A DNA stretch of 64,000 nt from Candidatus Hydrogenedentota bacterium. Lineage in GTDB: Bacteria; Hydrogenedentota; Hydrogenedentia; Hydrogenedentales; JAEUWI01. This document shows, piece by piece, positions 45,301 to 57,300 of the stretch. The DNA lies in contig JAXMOL010000001.1 of assembly GCA_034669905.1 (NCBI GenBank), positions 96,001 through 160,000 of the forward strand, written 5' to 3'. The position numbers are program-made. The number at the start of each line of letters is the position of its first letter. Position 1 is the first letter of the stretch.

Positions 45301-48300
45301 AGCGCTGGCAAACCGCCTGCGCTCCCAAGCCCCCATTCGAGAAGATGGCGGCCGAACGACCTGGAGAATGTCCGAGCTGACACTTCGCCTATTTAGAGGG
45401 CGGATAGCATGCGGACTATCTGCTCGTGCCCCTCTTTCCTGGCGACATCGGCTGCCGTGTCGCCTTCGTTGTTCTTGATGGCGGTGTCGGCATGGTGATC
45501 GAGCAGGACCCGCACGACGCTTTGGCCTCCGTTGTGGGCCGCCCGGTGCAGTGCCGTATCCCCGGTCTGGGTCTGTGCATTGATAGCGGCCCCCGCATCG
45601 AGCAGCGTCTGGACGACCTTCGCGTTTTCCCGCGCGGCCGCATAATGCAACGCGGTCCAATTGGCGCGGGTGCGTGCATCGACCTCGGCACCATGTTCCA
45701 GAAGAAAACTGACATCGTGATCATGGCAACGGGCGGCGGAAATGTGGAGGGGAGTCAAGCCCCAGTCATTCACCGCATTCACATCTGCCTGCCGCTTCAT
45801 CAGATAGGCCATAATATCGAGATTGCCCCATGCGGCCGCAGAGTGCAGGGGCGTCATCCCATATTCACCGCGGCTGTCTATGGGGATACCTTCATCCAGA
45901 AGTGCCGCCACATCGCGGGGCGTACCATCCGTGACGGCTTCATGGATGGTCTCAAAACGCACTTCCGGAGTCACGCAACTGCTGAGCCCCAAGGCCAGCG
46001 CACCTAGTAGGACACGTGATTTCATGACCACTCCTTTCCGCCCCAACCCGGGGCAACCGGGTATCGGAGGAGACGCCATTGCATTCCGCACGCCTCCATC
46101 GCTCAACCGCTACTAAAGCCCCAGCACACCCAGTATCTCCGGATTCTCCTCCTGCCACGTAACCACGTTGTGGCAACTCGTGCAGTCCTGGCTGATGATG
46201 TTTGCGCCATCGCGGCTGCTGTGACCATCATCGTGGCACCGAAAGCAGCCATCGAACTGGGTATGCCCATTGTGGTCCGGATAGGTCCCCCAACCAATAT
46301 CCATTGCGGGAAATATATTCTTCCGATAAATATCCTGAATCGCACGAATCGCTTCGTCCAGGGACTCGGCCCGTTCTGCCACAATCTCACCGTGGTTCTC
46401 CGCATAGAAGCCTTCCAGATGGGATTGGATGAATACCGTGGCATCTTCGGCATCAAGCGCCCCCTCCAGGGCGGCCAGTCCCGCCATTTTTACAGAGGGC
46501 AAGGTCTTATCAATCCGTCCTTCATCCAGGGCCTCGTTGAGTGCGGGCCCGGGCATCTTGAAGCGGTGGGTGGCCCGATTATGGCAGTCCGTACAGTCCA
46601 TTTGGCGGAGCGCCTCTTCAGGAATCTCGTTGCCCTCCTGAGAAAATCCGTCGGCATAATATTCGACGACCGAGCCATCCGGATTTACCGAGCGTATGTA
46701 GCCGATTTCCTCCCGTTTGTCGTCGGTGGAGTAATAGCGTATTTCCCGGCCTGGCGCCAGGTGCCACGTATGAATACCGGAGCCCGCGGCGTCGCGGCCT
46801 CCCACGTGCATGAGCAGGACGGACGTCAGGGGCGTATTGTTTTCGTCGGAGGCATAATCCGTGGTCACCTTCAGCACATCGCCCAAATCCATTTCGGGAT
46901 TGTGACACTCCCCGCAGGTTTCCTCCGCCTGGGCCAGGTTGTGAACGGGCACGGGTATGGGGGTTTCGTAGCTTCCGGTAAGCACCCCATAGACCTGATT
47001 GAGCCCATTCAACTTCGCATGGACCAGTGCGGGTACCCCCGGCCCGATGTGGCAATCCACGCACTTGACCATGGCGTGGGGAGAATTCATATGGGCGGTA
47101 AATTCAGGTTCCATCACCGTGTGACAGGTTGTCCCGCAAAACGCGACAGACTCCATATAGACGGCCCCCTCGTAGCTGATAAGGGAGATCAACATGAAGT
47201 TGAAGGCGGTCAGAAAACCGACGATGATGGCGAGCCGTTGAATGCGCGGGCTGTTGAAATCCAGTTTGATGTGGGCGGGTTCGTCGCTGTTGAGCGCCCG
47301 GCGACGGCGGCGGTCCCACCAGGCCCCCACGGGGATTATCAGCAATCCCAAGACGAATACGGCGGGCAACAGCAGATAGGTCAGAAGCCCGATGTAGGGC
47401 GAAAGGGGCACGCCTAAAAGGGTCATCACCATAAATACCAGAATGGCAAGGGCGCTCACGGTGGTCAGGCTACTACCGAATAGGGTAATCCAGTTACGCC
47501 AAATCAACTGCCCTGCGGCTCCCAGCCAGCTTTTCTCTGGACGATTCATCCGTCTATTTTCTCCCCGCGTTCCGTATGCTTTTAGGGGAAGGGGAAGGTG
47601 AACGAGTCACCTTCCCCACACTCCATTAACCTTGTGCTATCACGGCCCCATATTGTGGACATCAATGACGGCGAAGTCCGCGCCGCTGTCGTGACAAACG
47701 GAGCAGGATTCTACCCGTGCACCGGGATCCGTATTGAGGATGGCGTGCACTTCGGCCACCAGACTATCGTGACAGGATGTGCAGGAGGCGCGCTCCGGCA
47801 ACTTCTCGGAGACGATTGTGGTGCCGTCAGAGATAACGGTCGAGATGGCATCCATGGACAGGGGAATCTCGAAAGAACCGTCCACGTGACACATCTCACA
47901 GTTTCTCAAATCACCGGGGAATTCGATCTCGGTGAAGTCGTGGGCCGTACCGCCGAATCCGAAGACCGTAAACGCCATCTCCAACTCGGAGCCACGGTGA
48001 ATCTTATGGATCATGTCTTTGAAGTTAATCGTCTCCGGCGGCAATTGCTCCTCCGTGCGCCGTGCGATATCGGTCCCATTGGGGTTGTGGCACATCACAC
48101 AGCTATCCACACCGACCCGAAGGCTTCCGTGGAACCGCAGCTCGCTGTGACAGGCGTTGCACTTGGCGTCATCGATGATCTGACGACGTTCCACCGGCTC
48201 ACTATTGTTCACCGTGAAAATCATCCGTCCATTGGACGCCGTCCCCTGGGTAATCGTCTCTCCCAGGAGGTCAAAGCGCACCCGACCTTCCATCGCTACC

Positions 48301-54300: not shown

Positions 54301-57300
54301 AAACACGCCAACGCCTTTGAAGCCCTCAAGAGTGATGCAGCCAAGAAAATTGGGGAAGAGCGGGGCCTCGCCAAGCCCCCCCACGAAGCCCCGGAATGCG
54401 TGAAGTGCCACGTGACGGGCTATAATCTGGAAAAAATGGAAGTGCCCGCCAAGATCAAGATGGCCGACGGCGTCCAGTGTGAAACCTGCCACGGGGCGGG
54501 GGCCGCGCATGTGGCCGACGGTCGCGATGTAATGTTTAAGAAGAAGACCGCAGACGAAATCGACTGGACGGCCCACCTGAAGAAGGTGGAGGAAGCGACC
54601 TGCCTGGCCTGCCATAACGAAGAGAGCCCCACCTGGAACCCGGAACAATTTACCCGGGAGGATGGCACGAAGGTGGGATTCGACTTTGAGCAGGCCAAGG
54701 AAATCGTTTCCCATCCCAACCCAACCAAGGCCAAGTAAAAGGTGGTCAGGCCCCTCGCGGAGCGATAGGGCGACGGAACGCCGGACGGACGGGCTAAGTG
54801 GCGCATGCCCGGGTCCGGCGGGGCGAACACGCATTTCATGGATAGTTCAAGCGGCCAAGGTACGCAACCGTTACCTTGGCCGCTTTATTCATTAAGGTCG
54901 CGAAAGCGTATCAGGGGAAATCACTTCCCGGCCACATCACGCTTTGATAGAACCCACTGGCAATACCCTCCTCGCCGGGTGCGAAGATGTGGTTCGCAAT
55001 GTGCAGAGCGATGCCTGCCGCATTGATGGGGAACTGGCCGCCGGTGGGCAGGGGCGCGCTTTCGAATACCACCGTACCCGTCGATTCTCCCGGATACTTG
55101 AAGAAGGCCACGTGCCCGTCGGCAAAGAGCACATTGGCACCACCCGGCACATGGTTGAAGCTCTCGGCCGCATCCGCAATGTTGTCAAGCATAATTGCCA
55201 ACGTCGATTGCGAAGCTGCCGACGCAGCAGGGTTATTGATGTCGGTTATGAAAAACCGTTCAACCCCTTCCCGGAGCCGCAGCGCGCGATCGTAGCCACC
55301 GGGCAAGGGCACCGCGAAGTCCCAGTCTTCCTCGACCCGATAGACATTCTCGTAGATGCGCGCACCGAAGTCCTGCACACTGGCGTAGAACGCGGCCGAC
55401 TGGGCCGGCGTTTGAACCATTTCGTTACTGATGGCCCATCCCAGGTAGGTGTAGGGATGACCCAGGAACTCACACGGCTCAATGGCGCCACTGTTGGTGA
55501 ACCCGGGCGTATCCACGTAATTATCGGAACCCACGTTTCCCCCATCATAGGTGCTCAGTGCATCGCCGGTCGTTGAGGCGGCACTCGGGCAAATGAGGAT
55601 GTTGGCATCATTCATGTATTCGGGATAGACCTGCTCTCCATCGAAGATGGTGTCGAGGGAAGAGACAGTACCATCGCATCGTCTGGTCTTAATGGCGGGA
55701 AACTTTTCTCCCCGGCTTTCGTTGGCATACATCTTAAAGATGATCCCAAACTGCTTCAGGTTATTCTGGCAGCTTGCCCGACGGGCTGCTTCCCGGGCAC
55801 GGGCCAGGGCCGGCAGCAGGATGGCTGCGAGAATTCCAATGATGGCAATGACCACCAACAATTCGATCAGGGTAAATCCCCGGGTGGAATGTTTCTTCAT
55901 GAAATCGCTTCCTTGGAAATAGCCGTGCGGACGCACCACGGTTCCATACCCGTGTTGGTCGACGTTACGCACGGCAGACGATCGGACCCAAGATGGTCCG
56001 GCAAGTGAATAAATCAGCGTGTCTGCATCCAAAGAGAAGCGGGTGGTGCCCGGGCCTGCCGGGCTGTGGAAACGCCCCGGCCCCGGTGGTCGACATAAGC
56101 CCCGTGTCCGACTGGGCCAACGTCTATGGCCGCCGTTGCCACCGTGCCCGCACCGACGTGCAAGACCATGGTGGCCGCACTGAAATAGGTGTTTTGCAAG
56201 GGCTCGGGTGTAGGCTCCGGCGTGTCCTCCCGGGCTGGAGTTGTGGGCTCCGGCGCGTGATGGTGGTGGGGCTCGCCCTCCCCATGGCGGTGCACCATGC
56301 CCCCGGCACCATGTTCGTGAACCAACGCGCCGTGGTGGTGGGGCGTGGAAAAGAGCGAGAATCCCGTAAGAATCCGAAACGCCAGCAGGACCACGACCAG
56401 GAAAACAATGTCGGAGAAGTCAGCGCTGCCCGCACGCGCCCTGGCCCCACGAAGCATCGTGGACACGGCAAGGGTAGTACGGGGGACAAATTTCAAGGTC
56501 ATGCCTCTCTGGATGGCGCACACGTGGTCTTCATGCGGGGCGGGTTGGTTTTTCCACTCTGCCGGGGTGGAACGGGACGGGCTCGCTGAACCACCCTCCC
56601 CTAAACTGTATCGGCACGTCAGCGATGCGCCGTGCTCCGACGCGAATCGCCACCGTATTCTGAAAAATTCGAAGGGGTGCCCACCGGGGTGTAACACAGC
56701 GCCCGGGTGGGTGCACTACCTTGTAGAACGCAGCGAAACTTTAGCGACGCTGCGGGGATAAATAACCCAATACAACACAAAATTGAATCGACACCATGCA
56801 CCCGCTTTCCGTACCGCGGGTTTCTCCAAACAACGCCTGCCGTATGCAGGCTAACGGGCAGACCAGTCCCTTCGACGTCTCTCCAGGCAGGGGTTCGGCC
56901 TATCTCCACCGACTCCCCTGTTGACGTGTGTACTGGCAACGCTTGACCAGCGTGTTGCTGCCCACATCCCCGCCTGGCTCCGGTACTCCTCCCCCTCCCG
57001 TACCCACACCACCGCCGGAGCCAGGCACTCCCTTTTCAGGCAAGGAGGTGCCATCCATTAGCGACGTAGAGGATGCCCGCGCTAGTGGTTTGAATCATGC
57101 GGATGAGCGATTATTTTGCGGCGGAGCATTCACCAAATTCGATAATATACTCCCCTCCTTGGAGGGGAATGGTTAGGCGGGTCGAATAAACGCTGCTGGC
57201 AGAATAAACTCCCCTGACTTTGATTCAGACCATTAGTCTGACTTCAGCAAGCCCGCTTTACGCTTGCGCCAGGTGTCGTAGAAGACCAGCGCCACAATCA

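What a model noticed while it worked through the whole genome (the two positions that open the first line are those of the whole stretch)
46113..54738. Chimeric extracellular-electron-transfer cluster: ImcH-type quinol oxidase, MtrC-type decahaem and a porin-cytochrome tr [...]
Six adjacent genes encode a 5-haem membrane cytochrome best matching Geobacter ImcH (g00100), an OmcA/MtrC-family decahaem cytochrome (g00101), and, divergently, an 8-haem periplasmic cytochrome (g00102), a 551-aa signal-peptide protein of no family that ends in the outer-membrane beta-barrel signature ..YRLRF (g00103), a 14-haem cytochrome (g00104) and a 4-haem cytochrome (g00105). I read this as a complete conduit from the quinone pool to extracellular acceptors that joins parts known from Geobacter (ImcH, porin-cytochrome complex) and Shewanella (MtrC), so that this polysaccharide-degrading Hydrogenedentota bacterium can respire insoluble Fe(III)/Mn(IV) or electrodes. 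New would be dissimi [...]
Evidence so far: CxxCH counts and family names: g00100 5 (Swiss-Prot best hit ImcH), g00101 10 (NCBIfam 'OmcA/MtrC family decaheme c-type cytochrome', Swiss-Prot MtrC), g00102 8 (Swiss-Prot OmcB; Paired_CXXCH_1), g00104 14, g00105 4; only 15 proteins of the genome have >=4 haem motifs and five of them lie here. g00103: no Pfam hit at E<=1, N-terminal hydrophobic signal, C-terminus ...WRIRAGYRLRF. Homologues of the decahaem g00101 (46-72% identity, mostly full length) in 24 of 61 Hydrogenedentota genomes. Papers: one paper holds Hydrogenedent*, multiheme and 'extracellular electron transfer'; its passages assign the phylum only Cyc2-type iron oxidation.
(Added by a program. 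Inside this text positions count along the whole contig: contig position 96,001 is position 1 of the stretch shown here. "Call 12" and the like, gene names such as g00115 and contig names such as C1 are that model's own, and its searches are not shown. The text may have been shortened before it was handed on; [...] marks where a part breaks off. The agent that wrote the report below was given it as the finding of a first reader that could run no searches.)

Follow-up and report, generated by a model that had tools for sequence, protein, structure and literature searches.

The report
Outer-membrane electron conduit gene cluster
An uncultured Hydrogenedentota bacterium carries six adjacent genes for a chain of haem proteins and an outer-membrane barrel that probably passes respiratory electrons from the cell membrane to acceptors outside the cell, a new combination of known parts that is shared by about four in ten sampled genomes of its phylum.

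Summary
Six ORFs at 46113-54738 carry 5, 10, 8, 0, 14 and 4 CxxCH motifs.

- **g101** is a full-length OmcA/MtrC-family decahaem lipoprotein (445.9 bits, cut-off 209.3).
- **g100** has the published ImcH architecture: three hydrophobic segments, a CX3CH site, NapC/NirT homology and five CxxCH.
- **g103**, which matches no family, models confidently as a 22-strand barrel (pLDDT 84).

The cluster is not a one-off chimera.

- In 121 sampled genomes of the phylum, barrel, MtrC and ImcH-like genes occur in 54, 50 and 52. All three occur in 45.
- The 8-haem/barrel/14-haem trio is intact in 20 of 20 loci fetched.
- The same barrel family lies beside MtrC-family genes in Omnitrophota, Syntrophaceae and one unclassified MAG.
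- The genome has no MtrB and no true MtrA.

Best reading: an MtrC-capped porin-cytochrome conduit, probably working outward. Direction and acceptor are inferred.

The novelty is limited. A 2024 survey already Hydrogenedentota MAGs iron reducers, and this scan reported the same kind of cluster in another Hydrogenedentota genome. It is a new variant of a known kind.

The parts
46113..47549 (-). g100: ImcH-type inner-membrane cytochrome (478 aa), the putative quinol dehydrogenase
   Evidence: It has three hydrophobic segments (31-49, 59-77, 103-121), then CX3CH at 138 and CxxCH at 163, 212, 319, 435 and 456. PF03264 NapC/NirT scores 29.9 bits (cut-off 24.1), and there is a C-terminal c7-type match. 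The motif pattern is the same in the window and 13 of 13 orthologues. The family is very large: 7284 proteins at E<=1e-5 among 8000 scored.
47640..49751 (-). g101: OmcA/MtrC-family decahaem lipoprotein (703 aa), the putative cell-surface terminal reductase
   Evidence: TIGR03507 scores 445.9 bits (cut-off 209.3) over profile positions 7-672 of 672. PF22113 domain II/IV matches twice. PDB sequence matches are MtrF at 3.3e-35 and OmcA at 2.1e-29. The lipobox LLAGC is followed by a (PD)n linker. A lipobox-like site is found in 11 of 12 family members and 10 CxxCH in 12 of 12. It is the only TIGR03507 match in the genome.
49752..50284 (.). 533-bp divergent intergenic region between the two transcription units
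   Evidence: Position only. No sigma-70-like or sigma-54-like consensus match was found here. A GTGCCAAG-like word occurs three times as a direct repeat and once inverted. Its meaning is unknown.
50285..51325 (+). g102: 8-haem cytochrome (346 aa), locally MtrA/DmsE-like, a putative periplasm-side component of the conduit
   Evidence: It has 8 CxxCH. It scores below the cut-offs for the GSU2203 family (93.8 of 325 bits) and the DmsE family (71.2 of 192.2 bits). It matches the MtrA chain 6r2q_A at E=3.8e-8 over residues 64-228. The N-terminal Cys39 is invariant in 21 of 21 sequences, and there is an invariant C-x5-CH at 306-313. Eight of 21 family members have 8 CxxCH and 13 of 21 have 6.
51322..52977 (+). 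g103: 22-strand outer-membrane beta-barrel (551 aa) of a family unnamed in Pfam or NCBIfam, the putative sheath of the conduit
   Evidence: The AF2 model has pLDDT 84.2 and pTM 0.78, with 22 strands over residues 98-550. Best structural matches are TonB-receptor barrels at Z 18, ushers at Z 17.5 and MtrB 6r2q_B at Z 15.5, rank 18. The C-terminal Phe is nearly invariant. The family has 112 cluster representatives among 1.84 billion proteins. It is single-copy in the genome. The start overlaps the g102 stop by 4 bp.
52995..54068 (+). g104: 14-haem cytochrome (357 aa from the ATG at 52995; an upstream TTG at 52941 is also open), the putative trans-barrel wire or outer partner
   Evidence: It has 14 CxxCH in the window and in 17 of 17 orthologues retrieved, and all 14 motifs are invariant. 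A lipobox is present in 16 of 18 sequences. The two without one are the window and its same-genus relative. The weak PDB matches are to chains deposited as 'cytochrome c7-like domain-containing protein' and 'MULTIHEME_CYTC domain-containing protein' (8k9e_A at 2.6e-6, 6lod_A).
54139..54738 (+). g105: soluble c554-type tetrahaem cytochrome (about 199 aa from M27; the ORF is open from 54061), the putative periplasmic shuttle
   Evidence: PF13435 Cytochrome_C554 matches at E=3e-19. It has 4 CxxCH in 12 of 12 sequences and a lipobox in 0 of 12. It has a signal-peptide-like N-terminus ending ..LVQA/EE. It lies beside the trio or beside the ImcH-like gene in 12 of 20 loci.
45393..46106 (-). Ankyrin-repeat protein (237 aa) 6 bp downstream of g100; a genus-level neighbour and not a core part
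   Evidence: PF00023 and PF12796 ankyrin repeats match. The N-terminus has a hydrophobic stretch and the sequence LSSC. It lies next to the ImcH-like gene in 3 of 3 same-genus loci and in 0 of the 17 other loci.

Best explanation
The six genes encode one extracellular-electron-transfer pathway built from two linked modules.

**Module 1 (minus strand)** pairs an ImcH-type inner-membrane cytochrome (g100), which would take electrons from menaquinol, with an MtrC/OmcA-type decahaem lipoprotein (g101). g101 would sit on the cell surface on a Pro/Asp-rich stalk and reduce the external acceptor.

**Module 2 (plus strand)** is a porin-cytochrome complex. It comprises a 22-strand barrel (g103) that would sheath a haem wire across the outer membrane, a 14-haem cytochrome (g104), an MtrA-like 8-haem cytochrome (g102), and a soluble tetrahaem (g105) that would ferry electrons across the periplasm.

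The most likely path is: quinol, then g100, then g105, then g102/g104 inside g103, then g101, then insoluble Fe(III)/Mn(IV) oxides, humic matter or another surface. In function g103 plus g104 would stand in for MtrB plus MtrA, which this genome lacks.

**Shown:** gene content, haem motifs, family scores, the barrel fold, conservation, co-occurrence and linkage.

**Inferred:** localisation, contacts, which cytochrome threads the barrel, the direction of flow and the acceptor.
For: - **Parts.** Motif counts are confirmed. g101 is a full-length OmcA/MtrC member. g100 meets every architectural feature that PMC6295460 gives for ImcH homologues: 3 TM motifs, CX3CH next to them and 5-9 CX2CH. g103 is a confident 22-strand barrel, within the 18-22 range reported for Pcc porins.
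- **One unit.** Among 121 sampled phylum genomes the barrel is in 54, MtrC over its cut-off in 50, and ImcH-like in 52. All three are in 45, any of them in 57 and none in 64. All three lie within 15 kb in 28 of the 45. MtrC and ImcH-like genes lie within 5 kb in 36 of 47 genomes with both.
- **Core trio.** g102-g103-g104 are adjacent in 20 of 20 loci chosen by the barrel hit.
- **No alternative partner for MtrC.** There is no PF11854 MtrB/PioB match and no TIGR03508 match over its cut-off in the 95.7%-complete genome. g103 is single-copy.
- **Recurrence across phyla.** The A1 barrel profile hits an ORF next to an MtrC-family gene in 3 of the 5 loci fetched by MtrC similarity. These are an unclassified MAG with all six genes on one strand, an Omnitrophota MAG (MtrC, barrel, 13-haem) and a Syntrophaceae MAG (barrel, 9-haem, MtrC-like).
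- **Localisation signals.** Lipobox-like sites occur in MtrC (11 of 12), g104 (16 of 18) and g102 (15 of 21, with the Cys invariant in 21 of 21) but in g105 (0 of 12). This fits the three criteria for a conduit in PMC6148476.
- **Direction.** ImcH homologues were reported only from Fe(III) reducers (PMC6295460 abstract and passages). Mtr clusters used for Fe(II) oxidation lack mtrC (PMC4245776 passage).
- **Support machinery.** The genome holds two cytochrome c assembly (PF01578) genes and seven secretins over the cut-off.
Against: - No experiment, transcript or protein datum exists for any of these genes, and no RNA run was listed.
- No contact between any two of the proteins has been shown.
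- In the window's own genus g104 lacks the lipobox Cys, and g102 has an unusual D at position -2. Localisation there may therefore differ from the rest of the family.
- Which of g102 or g104 sits in the barrel is open. g102 is the one with sequence similarity to MtrA, whereas g104 matches the published two-gene Pcc pattern.
- The genome has two haem-copper oxidases and a separate pentahaem ORF on the same contig as one of them. An inward, oxidative use is therefore energetically conceivable.
- Pcc clusters also occur in bacteria that do not reduce Fe(III) or Mn(IV) oxides (PMC4245776 abstract).
- Co-occurrence counts come from related genomes and are not independent events.
- The 20 synteny loci were chosen by the barrel hit.
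Confidence: 0.7

Rival explanations
1. The same hardware runs inward. It would take electrons from Fe(II), a cathode-like mineral or a partner cell, and feed them through the ImcH-type protein into the quinone pool or on to the oxidases, as the MtoAB/PioAB systems do.
For: Mtr-type conduits are bidirectional (PMC6295460 conclusion passage). The genome has two COX1 genes. A separate pentahaem ORF lies on the same contig as one of them. Hydrogenedentota MAGs have been assigned Cyc2-type iron oxidation (PMC9769843 passages).
Against: ImcH homologues were found only in Fe(III) reducers in the 2018 survey. Oxidising Mtr clusters characteristically lack the MtrC-type surface cytochrome (also a passage in bioRxiv 10.1101/2022.03.26.485925). 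Here MtrC is tightly linked to the ImcH-like gene.
Confidence: 0.12
2. It is a conduit to soluble or colloidal extracellular acceptors (humic substances, chelated metals, sulfur compounds, shuttles) and not to solid Fe/Mn oxides or electrodes. Alternatively it serves redox balancing during fermentation of polysaccharides.
For: Pcc clusters occur in bacteria that do not reduce solid Fe(III)/Mn(IV) oxides (PMC4245776 abstract). In G. sulfurreducens, ImcH mutants were first found by loss of soluble Fe(III) citrate reduction (PMC4251993 passage). In all 12 MtrC sequences examined the lipobox Cys is the only Cys shared outside the haem motifs, and four over-extended or divergent orthologues have scattered extra Cys. 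The domain III Cys pair that I recall as the flavin switch of Shewanella MtrC is therefore absent.
Against: An MtrC/OmcA-type surface decahaem on a stalk is the component known for direct contact with minerals. Nothing in the sequence separates this reading from the main one. It is a narrower version of the same mechanism.
Confidence: 0.12
3. There are two unrelated systems that merely lie side by side: an ImcH/MtrC pair working with some other outer-membrane route, and a separate porin-cytochrome trio with its own function.
For: In 17 of 45 genomes with all three markers, the markers are not all within 15 kb of the barrel. Several such genomes have the MtrC/ImcH pair and the trio on different contigs.
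Against: All three markers occur in 45 of the 57 genomes that have any of them. The 12 partial cases include fragmented assemblies (for example G050 with 840 contigs and G093 with 970). No MtrB/PioB barrel is present to serve MtrC. The barrel lies beside MtrC-family genes in three further lineages.
Confidence: 0.05

Closest known systems
Pcc porin-cytochrome clusters, especially the two-gene form of Ca. Kuenenia stuttgartiensis and Anaeromyxobacter spp. (Shi et al. 2014, PMC4245776) and ombB-omaB-omcB of Geobacter sulfurreducens
   Same: A porin-like barrel is encoded next to multihaem cytochromes. Published Pcc porins have 18-22 predicted strands, and g103 has 22. The two-gene form pairs the porin with a 12-14-haem cytochrome of 338-344 aa, and g104 has 14 haems in 357 aa. 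Geobacter OmaB has 8 haems, as g102 does here. Distant relatives of g103 (about 27% identity) are Brocadiales proteins named hypothetical.
   Different: I could not obtain reference Pcc sequences, so homology of g103 and g104 to them is untested. Here two cytochromes flank the barrel and both are lipoproteins in most of the family. The outer cytochrome is of the MtrC family, which Geobacter Pcc clusters do not use.
MtrCAB of Shewanella (PDB 6R2Q)
   Same: g101 is a true OmcA/MtrC-family decahaem lipoprotein. g102 shares local similarity with MtrA (6r2q_A, E=3.8e-8). The overall logic matches: a periplasmic wire, a barrel and a surface cap.
   Different: There is no MtrB/PioB-family barrel. g103 does not match PF11854 and has 22 strands, against the 26 I recall for MtrB in 6R2Q. 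There is no decahaem MtrA (TIGR03508 scores 71.2 of 192.2 bits). The quinol dehydrogenase is ImcH-type and not CymA. The domain III Cys pair of Shewanella MtrC (recalled) is absent.
ImcH (GSU3259) of Geobacter sulfurreducens and its homologues (Levar 2014 PMC4251993; Zhong and Shi 2018 PMC6295460)
   Same: It has three N-terminal TM segments, an atypical CX3CH next to them, a NapC/NirT region and further CX2CH motifs.
   Different: g100 has 5 CX2CH, against 6 in the Geobacter group, and 478 aa, against 495-519. The 2018 survey lists 12 phyla without Hydrogenedentes and found no mtrAB/mtoAB next to imcH. Here imcH is nearly always beside an mtrC-family gene.
Earlier report of this scan, e1-1230109 (another Hydrogenedentota genome)
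   Same: It describes a bidirectional multihaem/barrel cluster read as a porin-cytochrome conduit, and calls it a new variant of a known kind.
   Different: It concerns other DNA. Only its summary lines were visible to me. The present report adds phylum-wide co-occurrence and linkage counts, the MtrC-barrel association in other phyla and the lipobox pattern.

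Membership tests
OmcA/MtrC decahaem family (TIGR03507) - g101 | Full-length profile score above the curated cut-off | tested here: met
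   445.9 bits against 209.3, over profile positions 7-672 of 672
OmcA/MtrC decahaem family (TIGR03507) - g101 | Ten CxxCH in two pentahaem domains (II and IV) | tested here: met
   10 CxxCH arranged 5+5. PF22113 matches in two stretches. 12 of 12 family members have 10.
OmcA/MtrC decahaem family (TIGR03507) - g101 | Lipoprotein signal | tested here: met
   LLAGC at residues 28-31. A lipobox-like site is found in 11 of 12 sequences by a simple regular expression.
OmcA/MtrC decahaem family (TIGR03507) - g101 | Conserved Cys pair in domain III (feature recalled from work on Shewanella MtrC, not taken from a call) | tested here: not met
   In all 12 sequences the lipobox Cys is the only Cys shared outside the haem motifs. 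Four over-extended or divergent orthologues have scattered extra Cys.
MtrCAB system | MtrB/PioB-family barrel (PF11854) in the genome | tested here: not met
   0 matches at E<=0.01 in the 95.7%-complete genome. g103 has no Pfam hit at E<=0.1.
MtrCAB system | MtrA/DmsE-family decahaem (TIGR03508) | tested here: not met
   The best match is g102 at 71.2 bits against a cut-off of 192.2, and it has 8 haems, not 10. There is only local similarity to 6r2q_A.
ImcH family - g100 | Three N-terminal transmembrane motifs | tested here: met
   Kyte-Doolittle windows at 31-49, 59-77 and 103-121. The same crude method gives exactly three in 8 of 13 orthologues and two or four in the rest.
ImcH family - g100 | Atypical CX3CH next to the TM domain, plus 5-9 CX2CH | tested here: met
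   CGTTCH at 138 plus 5 CxxCH, the same in 14 of 14 sequences including the window. The definition comes from PMC6295460 passages.
ImcH family - g100 | NapC/NirT homology region | tested here: met
   PF03264 at 29.9 bits (cut-off 24.1), residues 108-210. NrfH 2j7a_C matches at E=0.0012.
ImcH family - g100 | Sequence similarity to G. sulfurreducens ImcH itself | not tested
No reference ImcH sequence was available to me.
Porin-cytochrome conduit (three criteria of Otero et al. 2018, PMC6148476) | Integral outer-membrane beta-barrel | tested here: met
   The AF2 model has 22 strands, pLDDT 84.2 and pTM 0.78. Structural matches to barrels reach Z 15-18. The C-terminal F is nearly invariant.
Porin-cytochrome conduit (three criteria of Otero et al. 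2018, PMC6148476) | Periplasmic multihaem cytochrome | tested here: inconclusive
   g105 has a signal peptide and no lipobox (0 of 12). g102 and g104 have signal sequences. Localisation is inferred from sequence only.
Porin-cytochrome conduit (three criteria of Otero et al. 2018, PMC6148476) | Outer-membrane redox lipoprotein(s) | tested here: met
   g101 has a lipobox. g104 has one in 16 of 18 sequences, but not in the window itself.
Geobacter Pcc families (OmbB/OmaB/OmcB, Ext) | Sequence homology to the named proteins | not tested
   No reference sequences were available. g102 scores below the cut-off for the GSU2203-family model (93.8 of 325 bits).

The most novel reading that the evidence does not exclude
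MtrC-type surface decahaems may be interchangeable caps that also dock onto a second barrel-plus-wire pair, the g103 22-strand barrel with its 13-14-haem cytochrome, which shows no detectable sequence similarity to MtrAB. With a tightly linked ImcH-type quinol dehydrogenase this would form a third, self-contained class of outer-membrane conduit. It would be ancestral to a large part of Hydrogenedentota and shared with Omnitrophota and some Desulfobacterota. It would make these particle-attached polysaccharide degraders genuine Fe/Mn-oxide or electrode respirers.
Probability: 0.4. Interest if true: 0.65.

Novelty: new variant of a known kind. Interest (0 to 1): 0.5.

Why it matters
Hydrogenedentota are widespread and uncultured, and they are usually described as degraders of polymers. 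A conserved, complete route from quinol to the cell surface in roughly four of ten sampled genomes gives them a plausible anaerobic respiration on metal oxides or humic matter. That would link carbohydrate breakdown to Fe/Mn cycling in sediments and biofilms.

For the electron-transfer field, the cluster shows that the MtrC cap is not tied to MtrAB. It also supplies a compact six-gene set that could be tested in a Shewanella or E. coli chassis. The barrel family has no Pfam or NCBIfam model, so current annotation pipelines miss it.

Tried and rejected
- **Complex prediction.** g103 (residues 91-551) with g102 (residues 40-345), each with its own alignment, gave no verdict (score 0.00, controls not run). 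It is evidence neither for nor against binding.
- **AF2 model of g104.** An 18-row alignment gave pLDDT 46.2 and pTM 0.23, which is unusable, so no fold search was made.
- **Foldseek against PDB for g103.** It returned only generic large barrels (AlgE, ushers, Occ porins), with MtrB absent from the rows shown. The all-against-all aligner put MtrB at rank 18 with Z 15.5, below plug-less TonB-receptor barrels. The fold says 'large barrel' and nothing more specific.
- **The search for related loci with alignment A1.** I then spent the single genome-contig scan on g101. The taxonomic range of the barrel outside the phylum therefore rests on 5 loci, the Atlas hints and cluster names.
- **Sequencing runs.** No RNA holder was listed.
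- **Supplement of PMC10809760.** It could not be read because the reading timed out. Which FeGenie model hit the Hydrogenedentota MAGs therefore remains unknown.
- **Promoter scans.** One sigma-70-like site was found in 10.5 kb, inside g100, against 3.9 expected. The sigma-54 consensus, a motif recalled by me, has no match in the cluster.
- **Literature searches that found nothing on this cluster type.** 'Hydrogenedentes'+'MtrC' gave 0 papers. 'hydrogenedent'+'porin-cytochrome' gave 1, the hadal survey. 'MtrC'+'ImcH'+'Omnitroph' gave 1, the 2018 survey.
- **A one-off chimera.** Considered and rejected because of the conservation data.
- **g103 as a TonB-dependent receptor.** Considered and rejected. 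It has no plug domain, no Pfam TonB_dep_Rec match, and the barrel starts directly after a disordered linker.

Full report
**1. Observation**

| Gene | Coordinates | Strand | Length | Haem motifs |
|---|---|---|---|---|
| g100 | 46113-47549 | - | 478 aa | 5 CxxCH plus CGTTCH at 138 |
| g101 | 47640-49751 | - | 703 aa | 10 CxxCH |
| g102 | 50285-51325 | + | 346 aa | 8 CxxCH |
| g103 | 51322-52977 | + | 551 aa | none; ends YRLRF |
| g104 | 52941-54068 | + | 375 aa | 14 CxxCH |
| g105 | 54061-54738 | + | 225 aa | 4 CxxCH |

- For g104 the ATG at 52995 (357 aa) is the likelier start. That form is the one held in the protein collection at 100% identity.
- For g105 the signal peptide starts at M27 (nucleotide 54139).
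- A stop-to-stop scan of the 7.44-Mb, 102-contig genome found 16 frames with four or more CxxCH, and five of them lie here.
- Base composition across the cluster (GC 0.57-0.60) does not stand out from its flanks.

**2. The parts**

*g101, the surface decahaem*
- It is a full-length OmcA/MtrC-family decahaem. TIGR03507 scores 445.9 bits against a cut-off of 209.3, over profile positions 7-672 of 672.
- The MtrC/MtrF domain II/IV model matches twice.
- Solved relatives are MtrF (3.3e-35) and OmcA (2.1e-29).
- It starts with a lipobox (LLAGC) followed by a (PD)n linker.
- It is the only member of the family in the genome.

*g100, the membrane cytochrome*
- It has three hydrophobic segments (31-49, 59-77, 103-121). 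CX3CH follows at 138, then five CxxCH.
- It has a NapC/NirT region above the Pfam cut-off.
- This is the architecture that Zhong and Shi give for ImcH homologues: three TM motifs, an atypical CX3CH next to them, and 5-9 CX2CH (PMC6295460, passages). Levar et al. describe the same for ImcH itself (PMC4251993, passages).
- I could not compare it with the Geobacter protein directly.

*g102, the 8-haem cytochrome*
- It is below the cut-offs for the GSU2203 and DmsE decahaem families.
- It matches the MtrA chain of 6R2Q locally (E=3.8e-8).

*g105, the tetrahaem cytochrome*
- It is a c554-type tetrahaem with an ordinary signal peptide.

*g104, the 14-haem cytochrome*
- It gives only generic c7/c3 matches.

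*g103, the barrel*
- It has no Pfam, NCBIfam or PDB sequence match.
- It is not an orphan. An exhaustive search found 112 cluster representatives (37 at E<=1e-30) among 1.84 billion proteins.
- A 59-row alignment gave a confident AF2 model (pLDDT 84.2, pTM 0.78) with 22 strands from residue 98 to 550. A signal helix and a disordered acidic linker precede them.
- An all-against-all structural search returns 22-strand TonB-receptor barrels (Z about 18), ushers (17.5) and MtrB (15.5, rank 18). It is therefore a large barrel of no specific known family.
- The C-terminal Phe is nearly invariant.
- Only 5 of 59 family members touch Pfam Porin_4 weakly.

**3. Conservation**

- I sampled 121 genomes of the phylum. 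All were listed as the same order, and 86 were of high quality.
  - The barrel is found in 54.
  - TIGR03507 scores over its cut-off in 50.
  - The ImcH-like protein is found in 52 at E<=1e-30.
  - All three are in 45, at least one in 57, and none in 64.
  - The 12 partial cases include fragmented assemblies.
  - These genomes are kin, so the counts describe inheritance and are not independent events.
- From the coordinates in those calls:
  - MtrC and ImcH-like genes lie within 5 kb in 36 of the 47 genomes that have both, and in 36 of the 37 where they share a contig.
  - All three markers lie within 15 kb in 28 of 45 genomes.
- I fetched 20 loci around barrel hits.
  - g102-g103-g104 are adjacent in 20 of 20.
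  - g105 is present in 12, g100 in 13 and g101 in 11 of the fetched stretches.
- Motif counts are stable: 14 CxxCH in 18 of 18 g104 sequences, 10 in 12 of 12 MtrC, and 5 plus CX3CH in 14 of 14 ImcH-like.
- g102 comes in an 8-haem form (8 of 21, including the window) and a 6-haem form (13 of 21). The two differ by a two-haem insert.
- g102 also carries an invariant C-x5-CH near its C-terminus.
- Names attached to close homologues (Candidatus Hydrogenedentes, Hydrogenedens sp.) support the phylum assignment.

**4. Beyond the phylum**

- Five loci were fetched by similarity to g101. A profile of the barrel family hits an ORF beside the MtrC-family gene in three of them:
  - an unclassified MAG with the whole set on one strand (MtrC, ImcH-like, tetrahaem, barrel, 13-haem, 19-haem);
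  - an Omnitrophota MAG (MtrC, barrel, 13-haem);
  - a Syntrophaceae MAG (barrel, 9-haem, MtrC-like).
- The other two are a Hydrogenedentota contig with MtrC, ImcH-like and tetrahaem genes only, and an Omnitrophota contig that ends inside the MtrC gene.
- Distant barrel relatives (about 27% identity) belong to Brocadiales and are named hypothetical.
- The language-model search points to unnamed clusters from Nitrospirota, Deferribacterota and Acidobacteriota.

**5. Localisation signals**

A simple lipobox test gave the following.

| Protein | Lipobox-like site |
|---|---|
| MtrC (g101) | 11 of 12 |
| g104 | 16 of 18 |
| g102 | 15 of 21 |
| g105 | 0 of 12 |
| barrel (g103) | 4 of 21 (within signal peptides) |

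- The candidate lipid-anchor Cys of g102 is invariant in 21 of 21 sequences.
- The window and its same-genus relative are the two g104 sequences without the Cys. The genus has D at position -2 of the g102 site. The genus may therefore have loosened both anchors.
- In all 12 MtrC sequences the lipobox Cys is the only Cys shared outside the haem motifs. Four over-extended or divergent orthologues have scattered extra Cys. The domain III Cys pair that I recall from Shewanella MtrC is therefore absent.

**6. Mechanism**

- The genome has no MtrB/PioB barrel and no MtrA/DmsE member over the cut-off. g103 is single-copy. The trio is therefore the only visible way across the outer membrane for an MtrC-type surface cytochrome.
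- The closest published pattern for g103 plus g104 is the two-gene Pcc of Kuenenia and Anaeromyxobacter. That is a porin plus a 12-14-haem cytochrome of 338-344 aa, proposed to span the membrane without an outer partner. Published Pcc porins have 18-22 predicted strands (PMC4245776, passages).
- I therefore favour g104 as the wire inside g103, g102 as a periplasm-side lipoprotein feeder, g105 as the soluble shuttle, g100 as the quinol dehydrogenase and g101 as the cap. The alternative is that the MtrA-like g102 is the threaded one. This stays open.
- Outward flow is favoured for two reasons. ImcH homologues were reported only from Fe(III) reducers. Oxidising Mtr clusters lack mtrC.
- The organism also has two haem-copper oxidases. 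This would make the conduit an anaerobic alternative.
- The genome also holds cytochrome c maturation genes and seven secretins over the cut-off.

**7. What is known already**

- PMC10809760 (passages) used FeGenie porin-cytochrome homologues and lists 15 Hydrogenedentota MAGs among 'iron-reducing MAGs' of hadal sediments. Its supplement could not be read.
- PMC9769843 assigns the phylum only Cyc2.
- The 2018 survey of ImcH homologues lists 12 phyla without Hydrogenedentes. It states that no mtrAB/mtoAB lie next to imcH.
- Searches for Hydrogenedentes with MtrC (0 papers) and for hydrogenedent* with porin-cytochrome (1 paper) found no description of this gene set.
- This scan has already reported the same kind of cluster in another Hydrogenedentota genome (e1-1230109). 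It has also reported an MtrC-type gene without MtrAB but with a different porin module in a myxobacterium (e1-3050065).

**8. Verdict**

The cluster is real, conserved and coherent. It is best described as an MtrC-capped porin-cytochrome conduit with an ImcH-type entry point.

- It is a new variant of a known kind and not a new kind.
- It is not a local chimera.
- Function, direction, acceptor and contacts are inferred.
- The complex prediction gave no verdict, the g104 model failed and no RNA data were found.

Noticed in passing
window 50285-51325 (g102), residues 306-313: An invariant C-x5-CH (NSCAGxxGCHD) lies near the C-terminus of the 8-haem cytochrome, conserved in 21 of 21 orthologues. 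It may be an unconventional ninth haem site or a metal or disulfide site.
   Followed up: partly
window 52995-54068 (g104) and 50285-51325 (g102); loci L031-L033: The window's genus has lost the lipobox Cys of the 14-haem cytochrome, which is present in 16 of 18 family members. It also has an Asp at position -2 of the g102 lipobox. This suggests a genus-specific change in how the two cytochromes are anchored.
   Followed up: partly
window 45393-46106 (-): An ankyrin-repeat protein with a signal or lipobox-like N-terminus lies 6 bp downstream of the ImcH-like gene. It is conserved there in 3 of 3 same-genus loci and in none of the 17 others. A periplasmic ankyrin protein in a cytochrome operon is unusual.
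   Followed up: no
window 49788-50152: A GTGCCAAG-like word occurs three times as a direct repeat and once inverted in the divergent intergenic region. It may be a regulator site. No conservation check was made.
   Followed up: no
window 51322-51610 (g103 residues 47-90): A disordered, acidic Ala/Thr/Glu-rich linker of about 45 residues lies between the signal peptide and the first strand of the barrel. Orthologues have a similar low-complexity stretch.
   Followed up: no
G000:C14:134177-135325: A frame with 13 CxxCH is a (CHG)n repeat read out of context and not a cytochrome. It would inflate automatic multihaem counts.
   Followed up: yes
G000:C36:27918-32215 and G000:C44:21932-33896: The genome has other multihaem loci. 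One is an 8-haem, 570-aa protein next to a 4-haem lipoprotein-like ORF. Another is a group of 5-, 4- and 10-haem ORFs. None was annotated further.
   Followed up: no
window 54911-56032 (-) and 62681-63652 (+): These are DUF1559 proteins with an N-terminal methylation motif (pseudopilin-like). A homologue lies near the trio in 3 of 20 loci (L041, L042, L046).
   Followed up: no
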